Positions 13,850 to 48,792 are shown, counted from the stretch's first letter. The stretch: DNA of 64,000 bases from Parasphingorhabdus sp. (GCA_039978835.1 JBDWAQ010000005.1:586631-650630), one strand, 5' to 3'. The notes: a model not told the origin generated them from the letters alone. Made by a program: numbers and translations.

Positions 13850-14944
13850 ATGCAGAAACTTGGACTCTATATTTGCACCGGTGCGGTAGCATTTCTTTTA
13901 GCGTTCTCTGCACCTGCATCGGCTCAACACACAGAGTCAGACGATTGGCCTAGGGCATCAAGTGCGGAGCTATCTGTCCTGACATATAACGTGCGCGGAT
14001 TGCCTTGGCCGATTGCCAAGAACCGTTCACGCGCACTCAGAAAAATCGCAGCAACGCTTCGTCAAATGCGCGAAAATGATGAGCACCCGCAAATTGTATT
14101 GCTGCAAGAAGCATTTACTGGCTCTGCGCGCGCGATTGGCAGGTTAGCTGGGTATAAATACGTAATCTCTGGACCTTCGTCGAAGGAGAAAAACAATGCT
14201 ATTGCCAGCCCTGCCGACAGAGAGTTTTTGACGTCGGCACAATGGGACAAGGGCGAGGGATTGGGAAAAATCTTTGGCAGCGGCTTGCAGATCCTGTCTG
14301 ACTATCCGGTCACCGAAATCCATAAATTGGCGTTTCCAAAATATGCGTGCGCAGGCTTTGATTGTCTCGCAAACAAGGGTGTTGTGCTGGTCACCGTGGA
14401 CATTCCGCGGCTCGGCTCGACGGTTCAGATCGCCAATGCCCACCTGAATGCAAAACGCAGCTCAAGAGTAAGCGAAGAACGTCGGAAGTTTGCTGTCCAG
14501 CGTCAGATCGAGGCTGCTCACGCGTTCATTGGGCAACATCTCGGGCTAGGCAGCCCGCTCATTTTCGGTGGTGACTTTAACGTCGGCAACGTCGCTTGGC
14601 GCAGGGAACTGCTGTTTGGGATGGATTGGCCGATCAAGCTCAATGCAGATGCCCTGCGAAGGCTTGCGGCCAACACAGAGTTAGAAGCCGACGCACAGGA
14701 GGCGTTGGACCGTGCGACCGATTGGCAGTTTTTCCATTCGGGCAAATCACTACAGATTATCCCTCAGCGCGTATCAATCCCTTTCGGGCGCGACGTCGAT
14801 GGCAATATGCTTTCAGATCATGTCGGTTATACGATTATATACAAGCTCACTAATATTGGAACTGAGAGTCCAGAGGTCGCGGTTCCGACTCGAGAAAGCG
14901 GACTTACTAGACCGGCATCTACGAGATTTGCTGGGACTCGATAA
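13850..14944 (+). CDS. Secreted endonuclease/exonuclease/phosphatase-family protein (sphingomyelinase-like)
   Basis: Signal peptide, TYNV, LQEAF, GSGL, NAHL, GGDFN and SDH catalytic motifs. Confidence 0.85.
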   Translation: MQKLGLYICTGAVAFLLAFSAPASAQHTESDDWPRASSAELSVLTYNVRGLPWPIAKNRSRALRKIAATLRQMRENDEHPQIVLLQEAFTGSARAIGRLAGYKYVISGPSSKEKNNAIASPADREFLTSAQWDKGEGLGKIFGSGLQILSDYPVTEIHKLAFPKYACAGFDCLANKGVVLVTVDIPRLGSTVQIANAHLNAKRSSRVSEERRKFAVQRQIEAAHAFIGQHLGLGSPLIFGGDFNVGNVAWRRELLFGMDWPIKLNADALRRLAANTELEADAQEALDRATDWQFFHSGKSLQIIPQRVSIPFGRDVDGNMLSDHVGYTIIYKLTNIGTESPEVAVPTRESGLTRPASTRFAGTR

Positions 14945-15453
14945 ACCGAACTGGGTCTGGTTCAATAATGTAAAAATGAACTTGCGGCCGGATGCCCGAC
15001 TTCCCTAGGCTTGACGAGCAAAGCACTTTCACGCGGCGTTTCCTTCTTATTACTGGGCGATCACCGTCCCCGCTCTACAATGCTCAATCCGAATGAATGT
15101 CGGTTTCCGCCCATTACCTGCCGTTGCAATGGGATCAGTAGAATGGCAGCCTCCTACCCCAATGTCTGTCGTTTCGCTGCCGCTCGAAGTGGGCCGATTG
15201 CACACTGTCTGCTGCGAGAGGCAGTGAAGCCATAAACTGCCATTCATCTAATACCACATTTGCAGACGTTCATTCCACGAAGATAAAGCAGTCGATATCG
15301 CATCGACGCGGACTTTCCGCATTCGCTGGTGACCTAGTCCAAATTGGCCCGGACCGCCGCAATCATCTGTTCACGCCCACTTTCATATTCGCCAAGGAAA
15401 GTATCAGGCGCATTGGATTGAATCTGTCTGATGCATCAGGCGTGGCCGGCGGC

Positions 15454-15647
15454 TTACAGTCGGTTCCAGCTTGCATCCGAAGCGCCGTAGAAGTACTCGC
15501 CGATCTTGCCGACGGTCTGGACACTGCCGTGGTCTGGACCGGCTTGGCCTCAATTCCCATGGTTTCGAGATCGTGGACCGTATCGGCACTGATGCCGAGT
15601 TCGACCTTGATCTGGTGGTTATTGTCACGCTTAAAACATCTCACCAT
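15454..15647 (-). pseudogene. Possible decayed C-terminal fragment of a gamma-glutamyltransferase-like gene
   Basis: HQIKVELGISADTVHDLETMG, then after a frameshift at about 15540 GPDHGSVQTVGKIGEYFYGASD. This resembles the GGT C-terminus; by-eye similarity only. Confidence 0.35.
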
Positions 15648-16071
15648 TCAATAGATTGGGCGCAGACTTTCAAGTATCATCTTGATGGTATTTTTGGCGT
15701 GTTCGACCTTTATCGCATCGTCGAGGAGTGGGATTATCTGATCAGGGCTCTCCCCAGCGGGACCTATACAGCACTCTGTCCTGGGCATCTAGAGCTGCGG
15801 TCCTGAGTGTGCGGTGTTCTTTTATTGGCGCGGCCCGCACTCTGGATCAGCGACAACGGATTGAAGTGCCGCCGGGCAGGCGACAGATCCCGCCTAAACC
15901 AGCGGCGCGGGAAACCAAATAGCAGGGACCTAGTTTGCAACAACAATGAATACTTTAGAACGAGCAAGGAAATCTCGGAAGAGCTTCAAAACCATATGGA
16001 ATTTAGTGTACCGTCAATGTCGTCAATCTAAGTTTGTCACAAAAAGCAACTACAATGATGATCAGTACAAT

Positions 16072-16722
16072 TTAAATTTCATAATGGGCAGAGGTTTTGG
16101 TTGCCACGTTTTCTGTTGAGACCCCGGGAGCCAGCTCTACTAATTTGAACGAGTTTTGGTGGTCGGCGCGTTGCATGACGCATAAATCACTTATGATCAT
16201 ATCCACGACATTTTGCCCGGTCAGTGGCAGCGTGCACTCGGGAATGAGTTTTGGACTGCCGTCCTTGGAACAGTGATCCATGACTACGATGATTTTTTTC
16301 ACACCGGCGACCAGGTCCATGGCGCCGCCCATCCCTTTGACCATCTTGCCCGGTATCATCCAATTGGCAATATCTCCGTTTTCGGCAACCTGCATCGCGC
16401 CCAGCACGGCGAGATCAATATGACCACCGCGGATCATCGCAAAACTGTCGCCGCTCGAGAAGAAGCTCGATGTTGGTAGTGCACTGACGGTTTGTTTCCC
16501 GGCGTTGATCAAGTCCGGGTCTTCCTCGCCCTCAAATGGGAACGGCCCGATACCGAGCATCCCATTTTCCGATTGCAGAGTTACCTCGACTCCATCGGGA
16601 ATATGATTGGCCACCAGCGTCGGAATACCAATACCCAGATTGACATAAAAACCATCCTGCAATTCCTGCGCGGCCCGCGCCGCCATTTCATCGCGTGTCC
16701 AACCTTTTTGCAATACAGTCAT
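16072..16722 (-). CDS. 3-oxoacid CoA-transferase subunit B (ScoB/PcaJ-like)
   Basis: [15 protein letters not shown] (catalytic Glu) and GMGGAMDLV motifs. Confidence 0.92.
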
Positions 16723-16974
16723 CCATCGTCCTTCCCGACCATTTGTACAGGGTCTTTCAATGGCACATGAATAGCCCAGCGGTCCTGTGCAGGATAGATC
16801 GACACAGCCAAATATCGTTCAGATCATGCGCTCAAAAAACTAATCCGAAGTCGCAGGATAACGGGGTGAAATGCAGCTCCTTTAGCGAATCTAATCCGGC
16901 ATAAGAGAAAATCTAAGATGCAATATGGGTTGAGTCCGATCATTGTGACGAGGTGTATTTTGGGTGATGGGATA

Positions 16975-18090
16975 ATGGCGAAAATCGACAATATCAGGGT
17001 GGTCATTGCGGATATTCCGACCATTCGCCCACATGTACTCGCCATGACCACGATGATGTCGCAAACCATGGTGCTGGTTTTTGTCCGGCGTGATGATGGC
17101 ATTGTCGGGGTAGGTGAGGCCACAACCATAGGCGGGCTAGCCTATGGAGAAGAAAGCCCGGAAAGCATCAAGACCAATATCGATACCTATTTTGCACCAA
17201 TGTTGATCGGGCAGGATGCCGATAATCCGGCGGCGGCTATGGCGCGGCTCGCCGGACTAATCGTCGGTAATCGCTTTGCCAAATGTGCGATAGAAACCGC
17301 GCTGCTGGATGGATTGGGTCAAGCAAAGAACCGGCCGGTGAGTGCCTTGTTGGGTGCGGTACAGCATGAAAAACTGCCGATTGCCTGGACGCTCGCCAGC
17401 GGCAATACCGAAGAGGATATAGAGGAAGGCGAGCGTGTTTTGAGCGCGCAGCTCCACAGGGATTTCAAACTGAAAATCGGCACGCGCAATGTTGCTGATG
17501 ACTGTGCTCATGTTGCGGCCATCGCCCGCGCTTTCGAAGGACGAGCCAGCATTCGGGTTGATGTGAATCAGCATTGGACTCGGGAACAGGCTGACGAGGG
17601 CGCAGCGCTGCTGCAAGATGCTGGCGTTGATCTGATCGAGCAACCTCTGGTTGGTCATGATGTCGCGGGGATGAAGGCGTTATGCGATCAGTTTGATATC
17701 GCGATCATGGCGGATGAGGCTCTGACCGGACCGGTCAGCGCGCAGCGTTTTGCGGATGAACAGGCCGCCGATGTCTTTGCCCTCAAAATCGCGCAATCGG
17801 GAGGCTTGACGGCTGGACGCGAAGTGGCTGCCATCGCGAATAGCGCCGCCATCGCGCTGTATGGCGGGACGATGCTGGAAGGGGCGGTCGGGACCGCTGC
17901 GTCGGCGCACCTGTTTGCCACACTGGGCCCGATGCAATGGGGAACGGAGTTGTTTGGTCCATTGCTGATGACTGAAGAAATACTGGAAGAGTCGCTCGAA
18001 TATGGTGACTTTTCACTCAGCGTACCGGCCGGGCCGGGGTTGGGAGTAAAAGTGGATGAGGACAAATTGGCGCGATTTGCCCGCAGCTGA
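16975..18090 (+). CDS. catB: Muconate cycloisomerase
   Basis: Enolase superfamily: GEATTIGGLAYGEESPE, FKLKIG, RVDVNQ, IEQP, MADE and LYGGTMLE. Start set at ATG 16975. Confidence 0.93.
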   Translation: MAKIDNIRVVIADIPTIRPHVLAMTTMMSQTMVLVFVRRDDGIVGVGEATTIGGLAYGEESPESIKTNIDTYFAPMLIGQDADNPAAAMARLAGLIVGNRFAKCAIETALLDGLGQAKNRPVSALLGAVQHEKLPIAWTLASGNTEEDIEEGERVLSAQLHRDFKLKIGTRNVADDCAHVAAIARAFEGRASIRVDVNQHWTREQADEGAALLQDAGVDLIEQPLVGHDVAGMKALCDQFDIAIMADEALTGPVSAQRFADEQAADVFALKIAQSGGLTAGREVAAIANSAAIALYGGTMLEGAVGTAASAHLFATLGPMQWGTELFGPLLMTEEILEESLEYGDFSLSVPAGPGLGVKVDEDKLARFARS

Positions 18091-18104
18091 CAGACAAGGA
18101 GAAG

Positions 18105-18392
18105 ATGATGTTGTTCATGGTAGAGATGGTAGTGAATCCACCGCTGGATATCGACAAGGATGAATTTGAAGCGTTGAAAGCGACGGAAAAGGCGCGCGCG
18201 GAAGAACTGCAGAATAGTGGAAAATGGCGACATTTATGGCGGGTGACAGGGCAATATGCCAATGTCAGCATTTTCGATGTTGCCGACGCGCAGGAACTAC
18301 ATGACATTATGATGAGCCTGCCGCTTTATCCCTTCATGGATGTGCACGTCACATCACTTTGCCAGCATCCATCCGCAATTGAACAGATTTAA
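18105..18392 (+). CDS. catC: Muconolactone delta-isomerase
   Basis: MLFMVEM...GKWRHLWRVTGQYANVSIFDV...LPLYPFM...HPS, located between catB and catA. Confidence 0.93.
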   Translation: MMLFMVEMVVNPPLDIDKDEFEALKATEKARAEELQNSGKWRHLWRVTGQYANVSIFDVADAQELHDIMMSLPLYPFMDVHVTSLCQHPSAIEQI

Positions 18393-18406
18393 TCAGGAGA
18401 GCAATC

Positions 18407-19294
18407 ATGACTGACATAGTAAAAGGCGCAGCCGTTCAGGATCTTCTCGATCGCGCTAGCGGACTGAGCGAGGATGATAGCACGCCCCGCCTGAAGGCGA
18501 TCACCCGGGACCTGCTGGAAGCCATCATGGCTATTGTTGAGAAGCACGATATTACCGAAAGTGAATTTTGGGAAGCCACGGCCTTTTTGCAGGGCGGGGC
18601 AGAGGAATTTGGTTTAATCGTCCCCGGTGTCGGACTGGAGCATTTTCTGGATCTGCATATGGATGCCAAAGATGCTGAAAATGGCTATGAAGGCGGGACG
18701 CCCCGCACCATTGAGGGACCTCTTTATGTTGAAGGCGCACCGCTGGCAGAAAATGGTGTGAATCTCTCCACCGACCCGGATGATACCGAAACATTGACCA
18801 TGTCCGGAGTATTACGCGGACCGGATGGTGAACCGGTAAAGGATGCCATCCTGCATGTATGGCATGCCAATTCCAAAGGTTTCTATTCGCACTTCGATCC
18901 AACCGGTGAACAATCACCGTTCAACAATCGCCGCCGTATCCAGTTGGGCGATGACGGGCGCTATGCGTTTGAATCGAAAATGCCGCGCGGTTACAGCTGT
19001 CCTCCTGGCGGTGCGACCGAGAAGCTGATGCAGCTGCTTGGTCGTCATGGCGACCGGCCGGCCCATGTGCATTTCTTTGTTGAAGCTCCCGGTTACCGCG
19101 CATTGACCACGCAGATTAATTTCGGAGATGACCCGCTGGCCCGCAGCGATTTCGCTTTCGGGACACGAGATGGTTTGTTGCCTGTGCCAAATCGAGATGG
19201 CGATACCGCCCATGTCGAATTTGATTTCGAGCTTCAGAAAGCCAAATCATCGGACGATGAAAAATTCTCAGCTCGACCGCGTTTGAGCGCTTAG
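18407..19294 (+). CDS. catA: Catechol 1,2-dioxygenase
   Basis: GTPRTIEGPLYV, WHANSKGFYS and RPAHVHF intradiol dioxygenase motifs. Confidence 0.93.
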   Translation: MTDIVKGAAVQDLLDRASGLSEDDSTPRLKAITRDLLEAIMAIVEKHDITESEFWEATAFLQGGAEEFGLIVPGVGLEHFLDLHMDAKDAENGYEGGTPRTIEGPLYVEGAPLAENGVNLSTDPDDTETLTMSGVLRGPDGEPVKDAILHVWHANSKGFYSHFDPTGEQSPFNNRRRIQLGDDGRYAFESKMPRGYSCPPGGATEKLMQLLGRHGDRPAHVHFFVEAPGYRALTTQINFGDDPLARSDFAFGTRDGLLPVPNRDGDTAHVEFDFELQKAKSSDDEKFSARPRLSA

Positions 19295-20002
19295 ATGGTA
19301 CAGAAAGTCTTTGATAATCCGGAAGCTGCTCTGGAGGGCGTGCTGTTCGATGGCATGACAATAATGTCCGGCGGTTTTGGTCTTTCGGGAAACCCGGAAA
19401 GCCTGATCCCTGCCATTCGGGACGTGGGCGTCAAGGACCTGACAATAATCTCGAACAATTGCGGAGCGGATGGCTTTGGGCTGTGGATGTTGCTCAATAA
19501 TGGTCAGATCAAAAAGATGATCAGCTCTTATGTCGGTGAGAATAAACTTTTTGAAAGCCTGTATCTGGAAGGCAAGCTGGAACTGGAGCTCAGCCCGCAA
19601 GGAACATTGGCTGAGCGTATTCGTGCCGGTGGTGCCGGAATTCCAGCGTTCTTTACCAGGACCGGCGTTGGAACAGTGGTTGCTGAAGGGAAACCGGTCG
19701 AAGAGTTTGACGGGGAGCTTTATGTGCGCGAGAAATGGCTGCGTGCGGATTTGTCGATCATAAAGGCATGGCGTGCGGACACGGCCGGTAATTTGATGTT
19801 CCGCAAAACTGCGCGTAACTTCAATCCCAATATGGCAACCGCGGGGAAAGTGACAGTGGTGGAAGTGGAGGAGATTGTTGAACCCGGAGCATTCGATCCG
19901 GACTGCATCCATATTCCCGGCATTTATGTCGACCGGATCATTCAAAGCACGATCAACGAGAAACGCATCGAAAAGCTGACCACAAGGCCGCGACCGGTAT
20001 GA
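19295..20002 (+). CDS. 3-oxoacid CoA-transferase subunit A (ScoA/PcaI-like)
   Basis: SGGFGLSGNPE, PQGTLAERIRAGGAGIPAF and KTARNFNP motifs. Confidence 0.92.
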   Translation: MVQKVFDNPEAALEGVLFDGMTIMSGGFGLSGNPESLIPAIRDVGVKDLTIISNNCGADGFGLWMLLNNGQIKKMISSYVGENKLFESLYLEGKLELELSPQGTLAERIRAGGAGIPAFFTRTGVGTVVAEGKPVEEFDGELYVREKWLRADLSIIKAWRADTAGNLMFRKTARNFNPNMATAGKVTVVEVEEIVEPGAFDPDCIHIPGIYVDRIIQSTINEKRIEKLTTRPRPV

Positions 20003-20793
20003 CGGCGGGCAGCTTCCTCACCGACGACGGTTGCCGGATAGTCTATGATTATCAGCCCCGGACAGGCACACCGGTTATTCTGTTCTCTCCTTCGCTAGGT
20101 ACGGCAATGGCGCTTTTCGACGCGCAGGCAGAGGCGTTGGGAGCGCATTTTTCCGTGCTGCGCTATGATATGCGTGGCCATGGCGCATCCGATGCACCGG
20201 ATGGCGGCTATGCAATGGACCGGCTGGGCAGGGATGTTGTCGAGCTGCTTGATCATCTCGAGATTGAAAAAGCGCATTTTCTGGGCGTTTCGCTGGGCGG
20301 TATGACCGGACAATGGTTAGGTTACCGCGCGCCGGAGCGGATTGATCGGCTGATACTGGCCAATACTTCGGCCTATATGGGACCCCCGGCCGGCTGGGAG
20401 GATCGCATCGCGGCGGTTCTGGAAAGTGGGATGGGGCCGATGGTTGAACCGGTTCTGGAGCGTTGGTTCACACCAGATTTTCGGGAGTCCGGCGATGCAG
20501 CAGTAGAGAAAATAGGCCAGCTTCTGGAACGGACCAAAGCGACGGGCTATGCCGGTTGTTCTGCTGCCATTCGGGACATGGATATGCGCCCGATCCTGTC
20601 GTTGATTTCTGTTCCTACCTTAGTCGTTGCGGGACTCAGAGACCCGGCAACACCGCCGGAACATGCACAGTATCTCGCAAATAATATTCCGGATGCAAGT
20701 TTCGTTGAACTGAATGCCGCGCATCTTAGCAACGTTGAGTTACCTGACGAGTTCTCGGTTGCAGTGCGCAATTTTCTGGGGGTTCCATCGTGA
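19999..20793 (+). CDS. pcaD: 3-oxoadipate enol-lactonase
   Basis: YDMRGHG, GVSLGG and AAHLSNVE motifs; in the cat operon. Confidence 0.88.
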   Translation: MTAGSFLTDDGCRIVYDYQPRTGTPVILFSPSLGTAMALFDAQAEALGAHFSVLRYDMRGHGASDAPDGGYAMDRLGRDVVELLDHLEIEKAHFLGVSLGGMTGQWLGYRAPERIDRLILANTSAYMGPPAGWEDRIAAVLESGMGPMVEPVLERWFTPDFRESGDAAVEKIGQLLERTKATGYAGCSAAIRDMDMRPILSLISVPTLVVAGLRDPATPPEHAQYLANNIPDASFVELNAAHLSNVELPDEFSVAVRNFLGVPS

Positions 20794-21968
20794 CCGACCT
20801 CAAACAGGATTTTCTGCAAGGCATGAGCTTTGCGGCCGCGACCGTCAACATTGTGACGACCGGCGGTCCAGCTGGGCGCTCTGGTGTGACTGTCTCGGCC
20901 ATGTCATCGGTATCGGCGGACACGGAAAACCCGACATTGCTCGTCTGTGTCAATGATGCCAGCTCTGGCGCTGCGCCGATCATGGAAAATGGGGTGTTCT
21001 GCGTGAATATCTTGCGTGATGATCAATCGTTTATTTCAGACACATTTGCCGGGCGCTATGGTGACAAAGGCGAAGCCAAATTTGCGTGCGGGAATTGGCA
21101 GGAATTAGCCACTGGCGCACCTGCGTTGGAAAACGCGCTGGTTTCGTTTGACTGCCGCCTGACCAATGACGTGGTCGTTGGAACCCATCATGTGTTCTTC
21201 GGTGAAGTACAGGCGATGAAACTCGCGGATACGGGCTTGCCGCTGATTTACGCCAATCGTTCCTATGGTACCCCTTTCAGCTTACCCAATGCCGCACTCG
21301 AAAAATCCTCCCGACAGGAGAAAGTGGACAGGGTCAGGCTCGGTTGCCTCAATTCCTTCGGCCCATTTATACTGCCCGAGCTGCTGACCGGTATTCAAAA
21401 AAAGCAACCGTCCCTGCAGATTGAAGTGATCGAAGGGGATCAGGCGCAGGCGGTTGATGCAGCAGCCAGTCACGATGTGGATTTTTCGATCGTTTATGAT
21501 CGGCATTTGCCGGATAGTTTATCTGTAAAACCGCTGGCCGAGCTGCGACCCTATATTCTGCTTCCCGAAAGTCATATTTTGGCGAACGAGAAATCCGTTT
21601 CATTGGCGCAGCTTCAAACAGATCCGCTCATTCTTCTCGATGCACCACTCAGTCGCGAATATTTCCTGTCGCTATTTGAGGCCGCCGGTCTGAAACCTCA
21701 AATCGGAATGCGAACGTCGTCGTTTGAGCTGGTTCGTTCGATGGTGGCCAATGGTGCGGGCTATGCGTTGCTAGTGACCAAGCCAGCCAATATGATGAGT
21801 TATGATGGCAAGCCGTTGGTCACCAAACAGATTACCGATGATGTCGAAAAAATTGGCATCTCAATCGCCGGCCGTGCCGACACTGATCTGTCCGAAGCGG
21901 CAAAATCGGTCGAATTATATTGTCAGGAATATTTTGCGGAACTGCGAAACAGTAACAACACACCCTAG
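20790..21968 (+). CDS. Flavin reductase (IacG/HpaC-like) fused to a LysR substrate-binding domain, no HTH
   Basis: About aa 1-160: GRSGVTVSAMSSVS...PTLLVCVN...GTHHVFFGEV...PLIY. After a linker of about 25 aa comes a LysR effector domain (RLGCLNSFGPFILPELL...EGDQ...DFSIVYD...LVRSMVANGAGYALL). Confidence 0.8.
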   Translation: MTDLKQDFLQGMSFAAATVNIVTTGGPAGRSGVTVSAMSSVSADTENPTLLVCVNDASSGAAPIMENGVFCVNILRDDQSFISDTFAGRYGDKGEAKFACGNWQELATGAPALENALVSFDCRLTNDVVVGTHHVFFGEVQAMKLADTGLPLIYANRSYGTPFSLPNAALEKSSRQEKVDRVRLGCLNSFGPFILPELLTGIQKKQPSLQIEVIEGDQAQAVDAAASHDVDFSIVYDRHLPDSLSVKPLAELRPYILLPESHILANEKSVSLAQLQTDPLILLDAPLSREYFLSLFEAAGLKPQIGMRTSSFELVRSMVANGAGYALLVTKPANMMSYDGKPLVTKQITDDVEKIGISIAGRADTDLSEAAKSVELYCQEYFAELRNSNNTP

Positions 21969-22711
21969 CGCAGATACAGTCCGCCATTGACGTCATAGGT
22001 TGCACCTATGGCCGATACTGCAGCAGGGTCGGCCAATAACAGAACCAGCTTTGCGATATAATCGGGATCGCCGAGAACACCGGCGGGAATGGATCTGGTT
22101 ACGGCTTCCAACTTGTCGGGCGGCAGCAGGGAGCGAACGGAATCCAGGTCCAGCGGCCCTGGCGATATTGCATTGACGGTCACGCCATCGGCGGCGAGAT
22201 CGCGGGCAAAGACCTTGGTGAGAGTCATGATGCCGCCCTTGGACGCTGCATAGTGGGCGCCCGTTGCCGCGCCACCATTTTGACCGGCCAAAGAGGCCAT
22301 ATTGATGATCCGTCCATAGCCGCTTTCACGCATATGCCGTCCCAGCACCTGACAGCCGACAAACGTACCTTTCAGCGCAATTGCGGTAACTGCGTCAAAT
22401 TCTTCGGGAGAAATGTCGAACAGCGGCGTTGTTTTTGTCAGTGCCGCGTTGTTGATTAGAACGCCGACACCGCCCCATTTTTCGCTGGCCAGTTCTACGA
22501 CCGCACGAAAGCTCTCGGGATCGCGCACGTCCAATATGGTGGTTGTTACCTCTCCGCCTATCTCCGCCGCAGCAGATTCAAGACCACTGGCATCAACATC
22601 AGTCATGACAACCCGATATCCTGCACCAGCAAGGCGATTGGAGATTACCGCACCCAGTCCGCCTGCGGCCCCGGTGACAATAGCCACGTTATGATGCGCG
22701 GGTATCGTCAT
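21965..22711 (-). CDS. iacE: Short-chain dehydrogenase of the IAA pathway
   Basis: TGAAGGLG, NNAA and YAASKGG motifs; position directly after the dioxygenase beta subunit. Confidence 0.8.
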   Translation of the reverse strand: MTIPAHHNVAIVTGAAGGLGAVISNRLAGAGYRVVMTDVDASGLESAAAEIGGEVTTTILDVRDPESFRAVVELASEKWGGVGVLINNAALTKTTPLFDISPEEFDAVTAIALKGTFVGCQVLGRHMRESGYGRIINMASLAGQNGGAATGAHYAASKGGIMTLTKVFARDLAADGVTVNAISPGPLDLDSVRSLLPPDKLEAVTRSIPAGVLGDPDYIAKLVLLLADPAAVSAIGATYDVNGGLYLR

Positions 22712-23196
22712 AGCAAAAAAGTTATCCCGGCAAGGGCGTCCGTAGAGTTTATCAAACGCACGATTTTCCGGACGACTTTAAAGCTATCGCCGTAAGGTCG
22801 TAAAGACCATGTAACGTTGGCCGCATAGATACCATGCTTGTCGAATTTATACTGCACCAGATTTTGTGCACAGCGAATATGGATGTTGTCGTCGCCGTCA
22901 TTTTCAAGCCGGCGAAACCGTGAAACCGTACGCAATGTGTGGGCCGCGTGAGCAGCCGACATCGATTGCCCGCTGGACAATCTGCGTACGCGCATGTCGC
23001 GCATGGCGCCGCCGTCATAGGCATAATTCAGACTATTCTCGAAATCCGTTTCGAGTGGATCAATCGGGATGATATATTTCCCGTCATCGTCCCACAATGT
23101 GAGCCATTCCTGATAGTCCTTCTGGTCGAGCAAATCCGCCTCAAACCAGATAAATTCTGCTGCGGCGGCCAGATCGGTTTTCAGCTTCTGGTTCAT
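22708..23196 (-). CDS. iacD: Aromatic ring-hydroxylating dioxygenase beta subunit
   Basis: EFIWFEADLLD...WLTLW...YIIP. ATGA overlap with the alpha subunit. Confidence 0.85.
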   Translation of the reverse strand: MNQKLKTDLAAAAEFIWFEADLLDQKDYQEWLTLWDDDGKYIIPIDPLETDFENSLNYAYDGGAMRDMRVRRLSSGQSMSAAHAAHTLRTVSRFRRLENDGDDNIHIRCAQNLVQYKFDKHGIYAANVTWSLRPYGDSFKVVRKIVRLINSTDALAGITFLL

Positions 23197-24428
23197 GCGA
23201 CCATCATCCTTTTCCACATTTGATAGGCGGCCCGCATCCCGGTTTCAGCGGTTACATCGCCGGCATTGGTGGTGGTTTTGTCCTCTCCGCGATTGAGCAT
23301 GATCCAGATGTCATCCTCTCCGGCTTCGGAACCGCGCTGGACACGCTCCCATGCTTCCGCATCATCGGGCGTACCAAAGCCCATGGGTCCCTGAAAATGT
23401 TCGTGCAGCCGCAGCCGTGCCTGATTGGCTGCAGCCGGGCCGCCGTCCATGCCAATGGCGATATGGCGAATTTCGGTTTCCTCGACCGAAAGGGGTCGCA
23501 GCACCCGGAAAAAGGCCATGGAACAGGCCAGATTGGGAAACAGGTTGACGTTGAATCCGGTTCCGGTGACCGCGCGAACGATCCGACGAACTTCCTCTTC
23601 GCTATGATCCTGACGCAAATCTTCCGCCAGTTCGGCAAAGCGTTCTGGAATGGGATCATCAAGATTGGCTTCCAGATCCACCAGTTCGGGGATCATCACC
23701 ATGACGCTGTGACCATTGCCAAGATCTTCGACATAGCCGCCTGCATCCATAAAGGAAAATAGCTGTTCCGTGTCGCCATCCAGCGAGGTCAGGAAGCTTT
23801 TGTGAACCACCGGAAAATGATAGGCGTCGGTGGTGTTCTCCAGCTGGATTTTCCAGTTACCAGGGAAGGTAAACTTATGTTCACCCATGGTTTTGACCGG
23901 AAACCCGCCGCCCTGTTTCATGAACAGGTCGATCCACGGTTTTGCCCGACCCAAAAATTCATCGAGCGGTTGTACATCATCATTCATGGTCGCAAAGATC
24001 AGACCATTATAGCTTTCGGTCCGCAGCGTGATCAGGCCATATTCCGACTTGTCAAAATCCTTATAGCCTTTGGGCAAAGGCAAGCCTTTCAGGCTTCCAT
24101 CCTGTCCATAAGTCCACGCGTGGTAGGGACAGACAAAGCCAACCGCATTGCCCTTCTTATGCTCGCAAATCGTCGCGCCGCGATGGCGGCAGCGGTTGAG
24201 CATCACGCGTATTTCACCCTTTTTGTCGCGATTGACGATCACTGGCTGGCGGCCAATATGAGTGGTTACAAAGTCACTGGGATTGGGCAGTTCGCTTTCA
24301 TGAGCAACCCAGACCCAGGTCTGGTTGAAGATGCGATCAATCTCTTCCTCAAAAATTGCAGGATCTTTGTAAAGTGATGTGTGAACGCGATCTGGTTTCA
24401 CAAGGTCTTCATAGGACACGGATGTCAT
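23193..24428 (-). CDS. iacC: Rieske ring-hydroxylating dioxygenase alpha subunit
   Basis: CRHRG...CPYH Rieske ligands and DAYHFPVVH mononuclear-iron motif; cluster context. Confidence 0.88.
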   Translation of the reverse strand: MTSVSYEDLVKPDRVHTSLYKDPAIFEEEIDRIFNQTWVWVAHESELPNPSDFVTTHIGRQPVIVNRDKKGEIRVMLNRCRHRGATICEHKKGNAVGFVCPYHAWTYGQDGSLKGLPLPKGYKDFDKSEYGLITLRTESYNGLIFATMNDDVQPLDEFLGRAKPWIDLFMKQGGGFPVKTMGEHKFTFPGNWKIQLENTTDAYHFPVVHKSFLTSLDGDTEQLFSFMDAGGYVEDLGNGHSVMVMIPELVDLEANLDDPIPERFAELAEDLRQDHSEEEVRRIVRAVTGTGFNVNLFPNLACSMAFFRVLRPLSVEETEIRHIAIGMDGGPAAANQARLRLHEHFQGPMGFGTPDDAEAWERVQRGSEAGEDDIWIMLNRGEDKTTTNAGDVTAETGMRAAYQMWKRMMVA

Positions 24429-24961
24429 TTTATCGCTCCATCTTTTGAATTATCTGGTACCGGAATATCTTCGGCGTCGGTCCAGCGATCGACACGACGC
24501 GCAAAAATATTGGTGCTGCGGAAACGGGAAATACGCCACGTGCCATCTTCATTCCGGAAATCGATATTCAGACAGGCACTACGCAAATCCGATTTGTCAT
24601 CTGCATAAGTCGAACATTGGAGCATCATCCAGGCACCGCTTGCAGTGGCGCCGGAGACCTGAATATCTTCCGCAGAAAAGAAATGGCCGGTCATCGCAAA
24701 ATGTGGGTCGGGCGCGCAATAACTACCAATCATGGCGACAATCGCGTCGCGGCCTTGATAACCACCAAAGGCCTTTGCATATCGCCCCTTGCCTTCCCAC
24801 AAGGCATCGATCGTGAACAATTCGCCCAGATCATCCAGCGGAGTGTCCGGTCCCAGATCATCGCAGATCTGGAAATAGCGCGCCATCAACTGCCGGATTG
24901 CACTTTCCGATTCCAATCGCTCCAAACGTTGGCTCAGGTCCGAAAGAGAGATGTCACTCAT
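24425..24961 (-). CDS. iacI: SnoaL/NTF2-like protein
   Basis: RLESESAIRQLMARY...LFT.DA.W.G pattern; lies between iacB and iacC as in iacHABICDE clusters. Confidence 0.72.
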   Translation of the reverse strand: MSDISLSDLSQRLERLESESAIRQLMARYFQICDDLGPDTPLDDLGELFTIDALWEGKGRYAKAFGGYQGRDAIVAMIGSYCAPDPHFAMTGHFFSAEDIQVSGATASGAWMMLQCSTYADDKSDLRSACLNIDFRNEDGTWRISRFRSTNIFARRVDRWTDAEDIPVPDNSKDGAIK

Positions 24962-25317
24962 TCAGGCATCACCAGTTCGCGGCCAATGCGGGCTTCGACG
25001 CGCATATATTTCCATAAGCGATAGTCACTCACTTCGGTGGTGCGAAACAGGTTACAGGCTTCTACAACGGTTTCACGCGTGTCGACATGGGCCAATATGT
25101 AAAAGGTCCATGGAAAACCGGTTGGCGATGTGCCGACCATGGTTTCATCATCATCCATCGTGCCAATCACTTCGACACCAGGGATCTCGCGCATGATACG
25201 GAGCATTTTTCCGGTCGCTTTCAAAACGTCCATGATATCTGCGGAGGGCAGATCAAAAAACGATTGCAGTACTGCACCGCAAAAGAGCACACGTAGTTTT
25301 TCAGGTTGGTCATTCAT
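24958..25317 (-). CDS. iacB: IacB-family protein
   Basis: 119 aa, LRVLFC...FFD...DDDETMVG...FPWTFYIL...LWKY..VEARIGR, directly after iacA. Confidence 0.78.
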   Translation of the reverse strand: MNDQPEKLRVLFCGAVLQSFFDLPSADIMDVLKATGKMLRIMREIPGVEVIGTMDDDETMVGTSPTGFPWTFYILAHVDTRETVVEACNLFRTTEVSDYRLWKYMRVEARIGRELVMPE

Positions 25318-25348
25318 CAGTCGATCCTTTGTCTGTTATGCTGTTCGC

Positions 25349-26494
25349 TTATGGATATCCCGGAGGCGCTCCGTTGCCGAGCAATACGGAGCCGCCCGAT
25401 TGCCAAGTTTCATCGTTCATAAAGGCGTGCTGGGCGACAACCATCGCGTCTTGCACGTGACGGGATAGCGGGTGTGTGTTGAAGATACCGGTAGTGCCCG
25501 ACATCTCGAAAGCGCGGCGCGTGACATCGGCGCCAACGCGTGCCGCATTGGTTGATGCAATGCGGATCATCGCCAGTTCCTTTTGCGACAACTCGTCGCC
25601 AGCGACAATCACCTCCCACGCCTTTTCAGTCACTTCATAGAACCACGCCCGAGCTGACCCCAAAGCGGCTTCCATTTGCGAATAAGCGATCTGAAAATTG
25701 GGTCGATCCGACATGGACGGTGCGCCGGTGATGGAATTTTTACGGGTGGCGAGGCGGACGATCTCATCAATGGCCTCACGTGCGACACCCAATCCGACAA
25801 CCGCGAGCACTTGTGCGGCAATGCCCATGCTTGGGTAACGATAGGCCGGTGTATCGATGGTTGGTGCGGCGCCGCGAATGAGCGTATAATGCTCGGGGAC
25901 AAGAACGTTATCTACAACCAGATCATGACTGCCGGTGGCCAGCATGCCCATAACGTCCCAGTTTTCCTCGATTGAAATTTTGCTGCGCGGCATGACGGCC
26001 ATACGCGGCAGGCCTCCACCTTCGCCTTCGATCTTTATACCAACGCCGATCAGCGAGGCACCCATTGAACCGCTGCCAAAGCCCCAACGGCCTTTGACCC
26101 GGTAGCCACCTGCTTCCTTGACCGCCAATTGTGGCGGGAAAACCGCACCGGCAAAGACGATATCAGGTGTATCGGCATATATTTCAGCCAGTGTGTCGGC
26201 GGGAAGCGAGGAGAGATATTTGGTTGCAAAGCCAAAGCTGGCAACCCAACCGGTCGATCCATCGGCGGAGGAAATTTGCTCAATCACGCGAAGGAATTCC
26301 ATTGGCGTCTTCTCGGTTCCGCCAAATTGTTTCGGAACAAAGGCGCGATAAATTCCGGCAGACTGAAACCGCTCGATGATATCCTGTGAGATATGCCCCT
26401 GCTCATGAAATTCCGAACGCCGTGCGCGGATATCATCCAGCAGAGCGGAAAAATCGCTATCCTGATCTTCTTCCTTCAGTTTCACTACGCTCAT
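25349..26494 (-). CDS. iacA: Flavin-dependent monooxygenase, acyl-CoA dehydrogenase fold (indole-3-acetate oxygenase)
   Basis: GIYRAFVPKQFGG, DGSTGWVASFG, W.VMGMLATGSHD motifs. Start set at ATG 26494 after GAGGAG. Confidence 0.82.
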   Translation of the reverse strand: MSVVKLKEEDQDSDFSALLDDIRARRSEFHEQGHISQDIIERFQSAGIYRAFVPKQFGGTEKTPMEFLRVIEQISSADGSTGWVASFGFATKYLSSLPADTLAEIYADTPDIVFAGAVFPPQLAVKEAGGYRVKGRWGFGSGSMGASLIGVGIKIEGEGGGLPRMAVMPRSKISIEENWDVMGMLATGSHDLVVDNVLVPEHYTLIRGAAPTIDTPAYRYPSMGIAAQVLAVVGLGVAREAIDEIVRLATRKNSITGAPSMSDRPNFQIAYSQMEAALGSARAWFYEVTEKAWEVIVAGDELSQKELAMIRIASTNAARVGADVTRRAFEMSGTTGIFNTHPLSRHVQDAMVVAQHAFMNDETWQSGGSVLLGNGAPPGYP

Positions 26495-26507
26495 ATTCTC
26501 TCTCTCC

Positions 26508-27641
26508 TCATCCTTCAATCGGCACCAGGCCAGCAAGCGCGCAAAGCGCTTCGTCCTGGTTCATTTTTCCCACAAGCTGCATGGCAACCGGACTTCCCTC
26601 AATCTCTCCGATGGGAAGCGATATGGCCGGATGCCCTGACAGATTAAACGGACGGCATGTTGTGGTAATGGGAATGGCTGCTGCAGCATCCTTCGCCGCG
26701 ATCAATGTGGGTACGGGGCAAGGCATGCTTGGCAGGACCAGCGCGTCGACCAGTTCCAATGCGGCATCAACCTGGGCGCGAAAAGCGATCCGGATATCCT
26801 CCGCTTTTTGTAATTGTGCATCGGTAATCTGTTTCGCAGCGGTCAGCCGATCGGCAACATCCTGCCCGACCTGTCCTGTTTCCAGCAAGTGAGCAAAGGC
26901 ATTTGCAGTTTCATGTCCGATGATTTTCATGCCCGCATCGACGGCATCCATGAACAAAGGTAACGTAACTTCAGTAACATTGAAAATCGCCTTGGCCTGC
27001 TTCCGGACCATGTTCGCAATCGGCGCATCGGATTGGGTCGTCACAAAACCAACGCGTCCCGGTGTAATGGGACCTACCGGTTTCCAATTCGGGACCAGTA
27101 TTGCCATGGCCCGGGCAATCATATCAACCGACATGGCAAAGGGGCCGATGCAATCCAGGCTGCTTTTATCTGGCACGGCGCCAATCCTGCTAACCCGTCC
27201 ATATGTGGGTTTCAGGCCGGCAATACCGCAACATGTGGCAGGTACGCGGATCGAGCCGCCAGTATCTGTACCAATCGCGAAGTCGACGATATTGGCGGCG
27301 ACCGCAGCAGCAGATCCACTAGAGGAACCACCCGGGATCAGATCAGGATATCTGGGGTTTATCGGAGTCCCGGTCCAATGATTGACGCCGGTGACACCAA
27401 AGGCCAGCTCATGCATATTGGTGCGACCGATCAATCGGCAGCTTGCGGTTTCAAGAGCTGAGATAACATCGGCTGAATCATTTGCGGGTTCAGCATTGGA
27501 AAGAGCCTCGCATCCTCCGCCGGTCACTTCGCCTTTGCGGTTGAGAACGTCCTTGTATGCGACGCGCAGTCCATCCCCTGAAGCAGGAAATTGCTCCAGA
27601 AAAATGACTGATTGATCGCACATTAAGGCCATAGCTGTCAT
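26508..27641 (-). CDS. iacH: Amidase-signature family protein
   Basis: [14 protein letters not shown] and [12 protein letters not shown] (Ser-cisSer-Lys triad); first gene of the iac operon. Start uncertain. Confidence 0.78.
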
Positions 27642-27770
27642 TGGCTCCCAATATTTCAATGGCCCTGTACGGCCATTCAACAGAAGCAACATAAACCATC
27701 ACAGCACTATCGGGACATGAGTTCTACTTATGCGGTTGCCTGAATCTATTTTGTTCCAGGCTGGGAAAAA

Positions 27771-29108
27771 TCAAGGGCAGCGTGTTTCCTCGCATTTGAA
27801 AACTTCGCCATTTTTCATTACGAATTTCACCGATTGTAGCGTTGAAATATCGGTGAGAGGGTTTCCTTCAACGGAAATGATGTCAGCCAGTTTTCCCACT
27901 TCCAGTGTCCCGAGATCTTTGCTTTTGTCAATCAAATCGGCGGCATGTACTGTTGCTGACTTGATCGCATCGGATGCGGGCATTCCGGCCTTAACGTAAA
28001 AAACGAGTTCATCTGCATTTTTACCATGCTTCGTTACACCAGCATCGCTTCCAGCAGCAATTTTTACACCTGCTCGATAGGCCGCCATGAAGTTCTTGGC
28101 ATGACCATCAATGAAACCTTGCATTACAGTGCGCATTGGACCTTGCGCCTTCTTTAACCCTGCACGGACGTTATTTTCGACAACTGCTGTTGTAGGGACC
28201 AGGAAGCCACCGTTCCTTTTCAAAATGTCTCTCGCCTCTTGTGGCATAAAAGAACCATGTTCGATTGAATCAGCTCCGGCTTTTACCGAGCGTAAAATAC
28301 CGTCACTGGCATGGCCATGAGCCGCAACCCGCATCTGGCGCGAACGGGCGGTTGCGATTATCGCATCCAATTCATCGTCTAGAAATATTCCCGGAGCATC
28401 TTTCTGACCACAAGGTTTGCTGCCGCTGCAAGTGGCATAGATTTTTATGAGATCGGCGCCCATATCAATTTGCCGGCGAACCGCACGGCGGCAACCTTCC
28501 ACGCCGGAACACGCGCCCGGATCATCACCGGAACCGGGATGAAGTGTGTGCATGGCCGTTAAAATCCGTGGTCCATCAATTCGGCCAGCATTGATTGCCT
28601 GTTTTAGTGCCGGTATATGCCATCCGAAGCTGCCAACATTGCGTACAGTTGTATAGCCAGCCATCAGCGTTTTGTTGGCATAGCCAATTGCATTGATCAT
28701 CCCGGAAACATCATCTTTTTGGTTTTTATCAAGTCCGGCGATTTCATCTGCTACGCCTCTTAGTTTGAAATCATTGGCATCATACTGAAAAGAAAGATGC
28801 ACGTGCATGTCCATCAGACCGGGTAGAACAAACCGGTCCTTCATATCGATGACATGGTTATCATCTTCATTGTCCTGCGGCGGTGAAACAAACCCGTCTG
28901 CAATCGATTCAATGCGGTCGTTGCGAACTATAATGGTCTTGTTTGACAGCACGGATTGGCCAGGTTCAGCTAGCAACTGGCCTGCATGGACATATGTCAC
29001 CCGGTCCGGTTTCTCAGCCTCCGTCTGTTCGGCATCTTCCGCCTCAGCCATTGCGGGAGAGGACAGGATTGTCGCAGCAACAAGTGCACTGGCCAAAATA
29101 TTTCTCAT
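27771..29108 (-). CDS. Secreted metal-dependent amidohydrolase (Xaa-Pro dipeptidase-like)
   Basis: Signal peptide, PGLMDMHVH, GADLIKIYA, AAHGH, IEHG and AGSDAG motifs. Confidence 0.85.
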   Translation of the reverse strand: MRNILASALVAATILSSPAMAEAEDAEQTEAEKPDRVTYVHAGQLLAEPGQSVLSNKTIIVRNDRIESIADGFVSPPQDNEDDNHVIDMKDRFVLPGLMDMHVHLSFQYDANDFKLRGVADEIAGLDKNQKDDVSGMINAIGYANKTLMAGYTTVRNVGSFGWHIPALKQAINAGRIDGPRILTAMHTLHPGSGDDPGACSGVEGCRRAVRRQIDMGADLIKIYATCSGSKPCGQKDAPGIFLDDELDAIIATARSRQMRVAAHGHASDGILRSVKAGADSIEHGSFMPQEARDILKRNGGFLVPTTAVVENNVRAGLKKAQGPMRTVMQGFIDGHAKNFMAAYRAGVKIAAGSDAGVTKHGKNADELVFYVKAGMPASDAIKSATVHAADLIDKSKDLGTLEVGKLADIISVEGNPLTDISTLQSVKFVMKNGEVFKCEETRCP

Positions 29109-29109
29109 A

Positions 29110-32100: not shown

Positions 32101-32322
32101 AAACTTCGGTCGGCTCAATTCAGTGCCGAATTCTGTCAAGGATTTTGCAGCCCCGCCGTTCGCGTTCGCGATCCAGATCTTGTCGGCATAAGCAAATGTT
32201 ATCTGGTCTTGATGGATATCGGGATACCGAGCCAGTCCGATATTTTTGGCTGCACTTGGAAATGAAATACAAAGTAGCGAAGATATTATGGCTGAGTATC
32301 CAAGTTGTTTGGAATATGGCAT
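29110..32322 (-). CDS. Tricorn-like S41 family peptidase
   Basis: Signal peptide, beta-propeller repeats (FSTDG, WSPDG), PDZ-like region, GYIYVPN, IIDERFNTGG, SGGD and IGERTWGG motifs. Confidence 0.88.
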   Translation of the reverse strand: MPYSKQLGYSAIISSLLCISFPSAAKNIGLARYPDIHQDQITFAYADKIWIANANGGAAKSLTEFGTELSRPKFSTDGSQIAFSAKVDGNLDIYVIPAAGGEPKRITHHPAKDYALDWSPDGTGVLFASTMSSPRAVYNQLHIVPAQGGLPKKLPVPYGETATYANDGKTILYSYLRDFQEEAWKRYRGGRAPDLWSYDPVTGSGNQLTNHEASDSTPMQVGDAVYYLTERDDNGRSNIWRLGQDGQEPVQVTHFTDTDVRRPSADGRQIIFEAGGQLYRLDPSTKSSPERISLSTEMDMVKWKPKQQKVADRISNAAINGDGDVVIEARGDIFRYKGRKKNAANITQSSGSAERYPQISADGRVAYFSDSDGEYALYVRSSDGVERKVADFGPGLRYNPYWSPDGKRVALMDYQQVLWLVDIETGIKTRVDQGKWWFHWDLGTLPIAWSPDSRWISYANGLDNRNHAIFAYEIETARKHQLTSGLYNDFSPVFDDSGNYLMFLSNRNFSATYGDFIVDATWTYTNSVAAVILPLNPAVPSPGSEDWAMPGKPERVTISPRNAERRLALLGAKPGNIAALAATDDGYALLRQGDRSQGTKSILEKYVFGSDKPVTLQEETQLSLASAAGPYMLTKADKKLFIVNTAKKGKVKALKTDGLTATVDRQAEYRQMFADAWRYPRDFYYDPTIHGVDWNAVRSRYEALLPYAYIDDDLTFIVREMEGELEGGHVYASATAPRRRSDADNVGLLGIDFVPDGDVYRVGKIIRTGNRHLEHHSPLDDPALAINEGTVILAVNDKPITTATNPWQPFEGLADKTVELRIASSPDGSDARTVKVKTLKSERKLRELVWVEENRKKVEKASGGRIGYIYVPNTGREGQNELMIQYRSQIDKDALIIDERFNTGGALGDRFVELLNRPPLIYFRARNSTSYPLPENAFRGPKAMLINGWSYSGGDGFPLLFKTAKLGPLIGERTWGGLIGPGLSLPLINGGFISAPPIRVATVNGKWAEGNEGVRPNIEVANDPAQLANGVDQQLDRAIAEMMKQLENYQPVPAPEFQKAGEWNPDKRSK

Positions 32323-45048: not shown

Positions 45049-45075
45049 CCTACAATGTTGTGGAGCGGTTGAACA

Positions 45076-48775: not shown

Positions 48776-48792
48776 GATATTCCTCTATCCGC

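What the first reader, a model, noticed from the sequence alone, without database searches (positions are those of the whole stretch)
20790..21968. Flavin reductase fused to a LysR effector-binding domain with no DNA-binding HTH
Seen: a single 392-aa ORF has an HpaC-type flavin reductase domain, a short linker and a complete LysR substrate-binding domain, with no HTH. It ends the cat operon and overlaps the convergent iacE stop. Established: IacA-type monooxygenases need reduced flavin from a partner reductase (IacG), and no stand-alone iacG is present here. Inference: this is the IacG equivalent, possibly ligand-gated so that flavin is reduced only when an indole or muconate-type effector is bound. 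Alternatively it could modulate a LysR regulator by hetero-oligomerisation.
Basis: partly seen in the sequence, partly recalled or inferred. Interest (0 to 1): 0.65.

Follow-up and report, generated by a model that had tools for sequence, protein, structure and literature searches.

The report
Sensor-tagged flavin reductase for auxin breakdown
This gene fuses a flavin reductase to the small-molecule-sensing half of a LysR-type regulator; the fusion is real, widespread and unstudied, and here it probably feeds reduced flavin to the first enzyme of auxin (IAA) breakdown, perhaps only when a pathway metabolite is bound.

Summary
ORF 20790-21968(+) encodes 392 aa: Flavin_Reduct (residues 14-160), a roughly 15-residue low-confidence linker, and a complete LysR_substrate domain (176-381). 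It has no HTH. It is not strain-specific: more than 1,300 same-architecture homologues and at least 442 genome loci exist. Both domains are under purifying selection (dN/dS 0.03 and 0.11).

The window protein belongs to a well-supported Sphingomonadales clade of 19 members. In 13 of 16 informative loci the gene lies in or beside iacHABICDE, usually as the last gene of an iac-cat supra-operon and once directly upstream of iacH. No other flavin reductase lies in the 64-kb window, so it is the likely IacG equivalent for IacA.

In the sister clade (69 loci) the gene typically follows an HpaB-family oxygenase in a cluster that looks like hinFLHG/hinK, the imidazole-4-acetate pathway.

The fused sensor domain is closest (~45% identity) to HinK, the imidazole-4-acetate-sensing LTTR, not to CatM/BenM. 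The closest functional analogue is C1 of Acinetobacter HPA hydroxylase, a reductase fused to a MarR-like effector domain and activated by substrate.

Ligand gating is inferred, not shown. I rate this a new variant of a known kind.

The parts
20790..21968 (+). Fusion gene (392 aa): flavin reductase, linker, LysR-type effector-binding domain, no HTH
   Evidence: ORF; Pfam; more than 1,300 same-architecture homologues; exact match in independent run contigs
20829..21269 (+). Flavin_Reduct domain (residues 14-160), HpaC/RutF/TftC class
   Evidence: Pfam E 3.6e-34. NCBIfam RutF 153 bits, HpaC 112 bits. PDB sequence search: TftC 3k86 E 1.8e-32, CobR 3cb0. pLDDT about 90. dN/dS 0.03 against L001.
21270..21314 (+). 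Interdomain linker (about residues 161-175), variable in sequence and length across the family
   Evidence: AF2 pLDDT below 50 for residues 156-176; variable columns in alignment A1
21315..21932 (+). LysR_substrate effector-binding domain (residues 176-381), HinK subfamily
   Evidence: Pfam E 2.2e-34. Best solved relatives are HinK 6M5F and 3FZV, E about 1e-39. They are also the top Foldseek hits. pLDDT above 90. dN/dS 0.11.
16918..20793 (+). cat operon upstream of the fusion, probably translationally coupled to it: catB 16918-18090, catC 18105-18392, catA 18407-19294, CoA-transferase subunit A 19295-20002, 3-oxoadipate enol-lactonase 19999-20793
   Evidence: Pfam. pcaD equivalog TIGR02427 scores 298 bits, above its cut-off of 256. 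The order is syntenic in all Sphingomonadales loci.
16072..16722 (-). CoA-transferase subunit B, inverted and divergent from catB. In relatives it lies between subunit A and pcaD.
   Evidence: Pfam CoA_trans; 71% identity to the in-operon subunit of L082
21965..27692 (-). Convergent iac operon: iacH 26508-27692, iacA 25349-26536 (ACAD-fold monooxygenase, the presumed client), iacB 24958-25317, iacI 24425-24961, iacC 23193-24428, iacD 22708-23217, iacE 21965-22711
   Evidence: Pfam. iacA hits HsaA and the C2 oxygenase models. The same gene set and order occur in relatives. iacF and iacG are absent after iacE.

Best explanation
The gene encodes the NAD(P)H:flavin reductase component of a two-component monooxygenase. 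In this genome it is the functional equivalent of IacG. It would supply reduced flavin to IacA, the ACAD-fold group-D oxygenase that starts indole-3-acetate catabolism.

Its C-terminal half is an intact ligand-binding domain of the HinK subfamily of LysR regulators. It has lost the DNA-binding domain and the linker helix, so it cannot act as a transcription factor.

The most likely role of that domain is allosteric. It would bind a pathway metabolite, most plausibly a heteroaryl-acetate such as IAA or an early oxidation product. Its closure, or a rearrangement of the dimer, would then switch on flavin reduction. NADH would be spent, and free reduced flavin (hence H2O2) produced, only when the oxygenase has substrate. 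This is how the C1 reductase of Acinetobacter p-hydroxyphenylacetate hydroxylase works.

Shown: the architecture, its conservation, purifying selection on both halves, the HinK-type origin of the sensor, and the linkage to iac and HpaB-type oxygenase genes.

Inferred: reductase activity, IacA as the client, ligand binding, the identity of the ligand, and gating.
For: (1) Architecture and integrity.

(2) A large conserved family. There are 1,325 hits; the top 120 all carry PF01613+PF03466 and are 380-424 aa long. At least 442 genome loci encode a relative. Invariant residues occur in both halves. dN/dS is 0.03 for the reductase half and 0.11 for the sensor half.

(3) Client linkage in this clade. 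The clade has 19 members and support of 100. Arrangements seen:
- iacHABICDE-catBCA-catI(J)-pcaD-FUS on one strand in L002, L069, L082, L084 and L086.
- FUS-iacHABICDE-ferredoxin reductase without any cat genes in L083.
- cat-FUS-MFS-iacHABICDE in L004, L007, L008 and L087.

(4) In the sister clade an HpaB-family oxygenase lies within 10 kb in 32 of 69 loci. In 18 of them it is immediately upstream on the same strand, which is the position of a reductase component.

(5) No other Flavin_Reduct domain lies in the window. IacA needs a reductase, IacG (PMC7225977).

(6) The sensor domain is closest to HinK (6M5F is named as HinK in PMC11495319). HinK senses imidazole-4-acetate, the substrate of the hinF-encoded monooxygenase step (PMC8231116, PMC6467879).

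(7) There is a precedent. C1 is a flavin reductase fused to a NadR/MarR-like domain, activated allosterically by HPA, and it pairs with an ACAD-fold oxygenase (PMC11618861). IacA hits the C2 model and the fusion hits the C1 model.

(8) The predicted pocket loops (188-192 and 216-219) are conserved within each clade but differ between the two clades, whereas S288 and Y291 are shared.
Against: There are no biochemical data for any member of the family. AF2 places the two domains with a disordered linker and pTM 0.63, so no autoinhibitory interface is predicted.

In most relatives the gene sits at the end of the cat genes rather than beside iacA. Two clade members (L030, L085) have no iac genes within 10 kb.

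E. coli host reductases can substitute for IacG (PMC7225977), so a dedicated reductase is not strictly required.

Thirty of the 69 sister-clade loci have no recognisable oxygenase nearby.

No RNA reads were found for this organism. The rest of the genome could not be searched for a stand-alone iacG.
Confidence: 0.5

Rival explanations
1. The protein is a constitutive reductase whose LysR-type domain is only structural. It would act as an oligomerisation or docking module, for example to tetramerise the dimeric reductase or to tether it to the oxygenase, with no small-molecule control.
For: AF2 predicts no interdomain interface. LTTR effector domains are natural dimerisation modules (established knowledge). 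Thirty sister-clade loci lack any obvious pathway context.
Against: The inferred pocket-lining loops are conserved within clades and diverge between clades with different pathway contexts. A mere scaffold would not be expected to show that. The domain stays closest to a ligand-sensing LTTR of the same pathway type. There is a precedent for gating in C1 (PMC11618861).
Confidence: 0.2
2. The HTH-less effector domain forms mixed oligomers with a HinK-type LTTR, or titrates its inducer. The protein would then be mainly a regulator (anti-activator or co-sensor) that couples transcription to flavin/NADH status.
For: In 30 of 69 sister-clade loci a full-length LTTR with a paralogous effector domain lies nearby, within ~3 kb in most. 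Both belong to one HinK-like clade.
Against: No such LTTR was found in any of the 11 Sphingomonadales genome loci tested, nor in the 64-kb window. One relative has a MarR-type regulator upstream of iacH. The only LTTR in the window (46399-47316) is too distant to be detected with the fused domain. The reductase half is the more strongly conserved of the two.
Confidence: 0.12
3. The reductase serves a client other than IacA. Examples are a general flavin or quinone reductase protecting against catechol/quinone stress in the cat pathway, or an oxygenase encoded elsewhere. Its linkage to iac would be secondary.
For: The strictest synteny is with pcaD and the cat operon. L030 and L085 have cat+FUS without iac within 10 kb.
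Against: L083 has FUS directly upstream of iacH and no cat genes. The cat pathway has no flavin-dependent step (established knowledge). Thirteen of 16 informative loci carry iacA.
Confidence: 0.1

Closest known systems
C1, reductase component of p-hydroxyphenylacetate 3-hydroxylase, Acinetobacter baumannii (PDB 5zc2; PMC11618861)
   Same: Both have an N-terminal PF01613 flavin reductase joined by a flexible loop to a C-terminal ligand-binding domain. That domain is derived from a transcription-factor family and no longer binds DNA. Both are partnered with an ACAD-fold group-D oxygenase: C2 there, IacA here (IacA hits the C2 model at 106 bits). The fusion hits the C1 model and 5zc2 through its reductase half.
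   Different: C1's sensor is a helical MarR/NadR-like domain. Here it is a two-lobed LysR-type effector domain. The two are unrelated folds, so the fusions arose independently. Effector activation is shown experimentally for C1 and is untested here.
IacG of iac clusters (Pseudomonas putida 1290, Caballeronia, Paraburkholderia; PMC7225977, PMC11676955)
   Same: A flavin reductase encoded with iac genes and presumed to reduce flavin for IacA.
   Different: The IacG in the paper read is a single-domain protein of 183 aa that follows iacF at the end of iacHABICDEFG-type clusters (the wider size range and the cluster order are from memory). Here the reductase carries an extra sensor domain of about 220 aa and usually ends an iac-cat operon. 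Direct sequence comparison with a characterised IacG was not possible.
HinK (PA0218), imidazole-4-acetate-responsive LTTR of Pseudomonas aeruginosa (PDB 6M5F/3FZV; PMC8231116, PMC11495319)
   Same: The effector-binding domain aligns over its whole length at about 45% identity. HinK is the top fold match. The YDG and S-R-x-Y motifs are shared.
   Different: HinK has the winged HTH and linker helix and binds hin promoters. The fusion has a flavin reductase in their place.
Stand-alone HpaC/RutF/TftC-class flavin reductases (PDB 3k86, 3cb0, 2ecr)
   Same: Same fold and conserved motif region (TVSAMSSVS...P, invariant His133). Identity to TftC is 44%.
   Different: They are single-domain proteins with no sensor.

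Membership tests
PF01613 / HpaC-RutF-TftC class NAD(P)H:flavin reductases | Full-length match to the Flavin_Reduct domain and homology to solved reductases | tested here: met
   Pfam residues 14-160, profile positions 3-150 of 153, E 3.6e-34. TftC E 1.8e-32, CobR, HpaC. Foldseek TftC 44% identity.
PF01613 / HpaC-RutF-TftC class NAD(P)H:flavin reductases | Equivalog-level identity with RutF or HpaC | tested here: not met
   RutF 153.6 bits against a cut-off of 254.75; HpaC 112.5 bits against 205.95. It is a member of the class, not an orthologue of either.
PF01613 / HpaC-RutF-TftC class NAD(P)H:flavin reductases | NAD(P)H-dependent reduction of free FMN/FAD | not testable with these tools
   Needs an enzyme assay.
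LysR-type transcriptional regulators (LTTR) | N-terminal winged helix-turn-helix (PF00126) plus linker helix | tested here: not met
   No HTH_1 hit. Residues 1-160 are the reductase. The neighbouring LTTR of L040 does show HTH_1.
LysR-type transcriptional regulators (LTTR) | Complete two-lobed effector-binding domain (PF03466) | tested here: met
   Profile positions 2-207 of 209. pLDDT above 90. HinK and CatM effector domains appear among the fold hits.
IacG (reductase of the IAA catabolic cluster) | Flavin reductase gene linked to iacA and the other iac genes | tested here: met
   iacA lies within 5 kb here. Thirteen of 16 informative loci of the clade carry iacA.
IacG (reductase of the IAA catabolic cluster) | Single-domain protein of about 170-185 aa; supplies IacA | tested here: not met
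   392 aa with two domains. Supply to IacA cannot be tested here.
C1-type effector-controlled flavin reductases | Reductase domain fused to a regulator-derived ligand-binding domain without DNA binding | tested here: met
C1-type effector-controlled flavin reductases | MarR/NadR-like C-terminal domain | tested here: not met
   The C-terminal domain is PF03466, not MarR. The match to 5zc2 covers only residues 15-174.
C1-type effector-controlled flavin reductases | Stimulation of NADH oxidation by the oxygenase's substrate | not testable with these tools
   Needs kinetics with and without ligands.

The most novel reading that the evidence does not exclude
The family is a second, independently evolved class of substrate-gated flavin reductases. 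The sensor was copied from the pathway's own LysR regulator (HinK type, imidazole-4-acetate). In Sphingomonadales it was retuned to an indole-acetate-type ligand. The window protein would then be an auxin-gated redox enzyme that releases reduced flavin to IacA only when IAA or its first oxidation product is present. It would also be a ready-made, HTH-free IAA-binding module.
Probability: 0.3. Interest if true: 0.7.

Novelty: new variant of a known kind. Interest (0 to 1): 0.55.

Why it matters
Two-component flavin monooxygenases waste NADH and make H2O2 if their reductase runs without substrate. Only one solution, C1 of HPA hydroxylase, has been worked out.

This is a large, uncharacterised family (more than 1,300 proteins in Alpha- and Gammaproteobacteria) that appears to have reached the same solution with a different sensor fold. 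That would show effector-gated flavin supply to be a general design principle. It would also explain how marine sphingomonads run the iac pathway without iacG. Finally, it would offer a natural pair of sensor domains (imidazole-acetate against indole-acetate contexts) for studying ligand retuning and for biosensor engineering.

Tried and rejected
- Assembly or frameshift artefact: rejected. Independent contigs are identical, and a relative shows substitutions only.
- Strain-specific fusion or decaying effector domain: rejected.
- CatR/BenM-type muconate sensor: not supported. CatM/BenM are only distant fold hits at 20-24% identity, while HinK is about 45% in the sequence alignment.
- A hidden or decayed LTTR in the ORF-poor gap 14944-16072: no trace, no Rfam hit, and no similarity to L001.
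- Reaching Pseudomonas HinF from the HpaB-like neighbour: failed. The 120 best hits are all at least 78% identical marine homologues, so the hinF assignment rests on gene content, gene order and the HinK-type regulator only.
- Literature search for this architecture: nothing found.
- RNA evidence: no reads in the one RNA run tried.
- Promoter and terminator scans: at chance level.

Full report
**Observation.** Window 20790-21968 (+) is a single ORF of 392 codons, from a GTG start to a TAG stop.
- Pfam finds Flavin_Reduct at residues 14-160 (E 3.6e-34) and a complete LysR_substrate domain at residues 176-381 (E 2.2e-34, profile 2-207 of 209). No HTH_1 is found.
- NCBIfam scores the N-terminal half best against RutF (153 bits) and HpaC (112 bits), both below their equivalog cut-offs. 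It is an HpaC/RutF/TftC-class reductase rather than an orthologue of either.
- The GTG overlaps the stop of the upstream 3-oxoadipate enol-lactonase gene by 4 nt (GTGA). The TAG overlaps the stop of the convergent SDR gene within CTAG.
- Contigs of two independent runs match 19900-22800 exactly. A relative at about 96% identity differs by 118 substitutions and no indel. The fusion is therefore not an assembly error.

**Surroundings.**
- On the + strand lie catB, catC, catA, CoA-transferase subunit A, pcaD and then the fusion. pcaD (TIGR02427) scores 298 bits, above its cut-off.
- On the - strand, converging on the fusion, lie iacH, iacA (ACAD-fold), a 119-aa ORF, a SnoaL_4 ORF, iacC, iacD and iacE.
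- By the sizes in PMC11676955, the 119-aa ORF is iacB and the 178-aa ORF is iacI. The order is then iacHABICDE, as recalled (not checked in a paper here) for the Acinetobacter/Enterobacter clusters, with iacF and iacG missing after iacE.
- tblastn finds no second flavin-reductase domain and no HinK-type LTTR in the 64 kb.
- The window also lacks the ferredoxin reductase, MarR and in-operon thiolase that some relatives have.

**The family.**
- The protein has 1,325 homologues at E<=1e-3 among the candidates scored. The best 120 all carry both Pfam domains and are 380-424 aa long.
- A genome scan found at least 442 loci that encode a relative, and 80 were kept. They come from Sphingomonadales, Hyphomicrobiales, Rhodobacterales, Rhodospirillales, Arenicellales and Steroidobacteraceae.
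- Alignments show invariant residues in both halves.
- Against the 95%-identical Parasphingorhabdus MAG (L001), dN/dS is 0.03 for the reductase half and 0.11 for the sensor half.
- The refutation condition 'unique to this strain with a degenerate effector domain' is not met.

**Two clades, two contexts.** A maximum-likelihood tree splits the 80 loci plus the window into a Sphingomonadales clade (12 rows, SH-aLRT 100) and a sister clade of 69. Seven further contigs fetched by identity all fall in the first clade, giving 19 rows against 69 with support 100.

In the Sphingomonadales clade the gene follows pcaD almost everywhere, and iac genes are nearby:
- One-strand runs iac(H)ABICDE-catBCA-catI(J)-(thiolase)-pcaD-FUS occur in L002, L069, L082, L084 and L086.
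- The order cat-FUS-MFS-iacHABICDE occurs in L004, L007, L008 and L087.
- The window and L001 have an inverted, convergent version.
- In L083, the deepest branch of the clade, FUS lies directly upstream of iacH-A-B-I-C-D-E-ferredoxin reductase, with no cat genes at all.
- Thirteen of 16 informative loci carry iacA within 10 kb.
- L030 and L085 do not. In them the fusion is followed by a block of a TPP-dependent decarboxylase, an aminotransferase and an aldehyde dehydrogenase.

In the sister clade:
- 32 of 69 loci have an HpaB-family oxygenase within 10 kb. In 18 it lies immediately upstream on the same strand, where a reductase component is expected.
- 27 loci have RidA, 27 have DUF1028, 15 have an M20 deacylase, and 30 have a full-length LTTR whose effector domain is paralogous to the fused one.

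**Origin of the sensor domain.**
- Sequence and fold searches agree. The best solved relatives of residues 176-392 are HinK of P. aeruginosa (6M5F, and 3FZV with the same sequence), at E about 1e-39 and about 45% identity over the whole domain. They are also the top Foldseek hits. CatM/BenM follow far behind at 20-24% identity. PMC11495319 names 6M5F as HinK.
- The neighbouring LTTR of L040 is also closest to HinK, over both HTH and effector domain.
- In a tree of effector domains, the fused domains, the neighbouring LTTRs and HinK form one group, separated with 99% support from two distant LTTRs. The order inside the group is unresolved.
- HinK responds to imidazole-4-acetate (PMC8231116).
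- The hinFLHG products are a monooxygenase, an enamine deaminase and two amidases (PMC6467879 Table 3). This matches the run HpaB-like - FUS - RidA - DUF1028 - M20.
- I could not compare HinF directly, so the hin-like assignment is an inference from gene content, gene order and the regulator.

**Structure.** AF2 with 121 sequences gives mean pLDDT 88.4. Both domains score about 90 or higher, residues 156-176 score below 50, and pTM is 0.63. These are two well-formed domains on a flexible tether, with no confident interface.

**Mechanism.** IacA is a group-D flavin monooxygenase that needs a reductase, IacG (PMC7225977). Here IacA hits the HsaA and C2 oxygenase models, and the fusion hits the C1 reductase model and structure through its N-terminal half.

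The best-studied relative in design is C1 of A. baumannii HPA hydroxylase. It is a flavin reductase joined by a flexible loop to a NadR/MarR-like domain. That domain binds HPA, the oxygenase's substrate, and thereby releases the reductase (PMC11618861).

The fusion family repeats this logic with a different sensor fold. The sensor is a paralogue of the regulator that senses the oxygenase's substrate in the (probable) hin clusters.

The loops that line LTTR ligand pockets, by analogy with BenM/CatM (my own knowledge), are conserved within each clade but differ between them. These are the beta1-alpha1 loop (188-192) and the beta2-alpha2 loop (216-219). The iac clade reads CLsSFAp / EGDQaQ and the sister clade reads cfhtFGPy / EGDQRr. 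S288 and Y291, at the N-terminus of the RD-II helix, are shared by all groups, including the neighbouring LTTRs and HinK itself. This fits a common carboxylate anchor with a retuned ring pocket.

I therefore commit to an IacG-equivalent reductase whose activity is gated by a heteroaryl-acetate-type pathway metabolite. My estimates are about 0.75 for the client (IacA), about 0.45 for gating, and 0.5 overall.

**Rivals.**
- A constitutive reductase with a purely structural domain (0.2).
- Hetero-oligomerisation with, or inducer titration from, a HinK-type LTTR (0.12). This is plausible in the sister clade but unsupported here. The clade has no such LTTR nearby, and one relative has a MarR upstream of iacH.
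- A client other than IacA (0.1). This is weakened by L083.

**Novelty.** No paper in the library describes this architecture, and databases give only generic names. Earlier AI notes of this scan on other members reached the same C1-analogue and hin-cluster reading. They are leads, not independent support. New here is the Sphingomonadales sub-clade recruited to the iac-cat supra-operon with an ACAD-fold client. I rate it a new variant of a known kind, with interest 0.55.

Noticed in passing
window 43777-51570; L030 11355-19140; L085 11500-17002: The window holds a block of MFS, an enolase-superfamily enzyme, an LTTR, an aldehyde dehydrogenase, an aminotransferase and a TPP-dependent decarboxylase. 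This is an Ehrlich / indole-3-pyruvate-type route to an aryl-acetate. It lies 22 kb from the fusion here, but its orthologue (65-78% aa identity) lies immediately downstream of the fusion in L030 and L085, the two clade members without iac genes within 10 kb.
   Followed up: partly
window 14944-16072: About 1.1 kb upstream of the inverted CoA-transferase B gene has no ORF of 150 aa or more, no Rfam hit and no LTTR remnant. It has no nucleotide similarity to the otherwise roughly 90%-identical L001. It is a strain-specific, unexplained stretch.
   Followed up: partly
window 16072-16722 (-): CoA-transferase subunit B is inverted and divergent from catB. In L002, L082 and L084 it lies between subunit A and pcaD/thiolase on the operon strand. 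Together with the convergent iac operon, this points to local inversions in this lineage.
   Followed up: partly
window 21965-27692; L083 16889-18139; L085 1-769: The window has no iacF. In L083 a Pyr_redox_2/Reductase_C ferredoxin reductase follows iacE, and L085 starts with one. No homologue of it is in the window. The electron supply for the Rieske oxygenase IacCD is unaccounted for here.
   Followed up: partly
L086 1-367: A MarR-family gene lies directly upstream of iacH in one relative. It is the expected IacR-type regulator. No homologue is in the window.
   Followed up: no
L081 3551-6490; L084 12343-15261; L087 19115-20086; L004/L007/L008 upstream of catB: An ornithine cyclodeaminase/mu-crystallin gene recurs next to the cat-FUS operon in several Sphingomonadales loci. 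In L081 and L084 it is joined by RidA and a DAO-type FAD oxidase. Function unknown.
   Followed up: no
L020, L022, L060, L071, L077, L012, L026, L051 (Arenicellales): In Arenicellales the fusion is detached from any HpaB gene. It lies beside varied genes: dimethylformamidase-like, class III alcohol dehydrogenase with S-formylglutathione hydrolase, TRAP transporter with amidase, and citrate-synthase-like. The client there is unknown.
   Followed up: no
window 27771-32409 (-): An amidohydrolase and a 1,099-aa tricorn-like protease (PD40, PDZ_Tricorn, Peptidase_S41) are co-oriented with iacH and lie 78 nt upstream of it.
   Followed up: no
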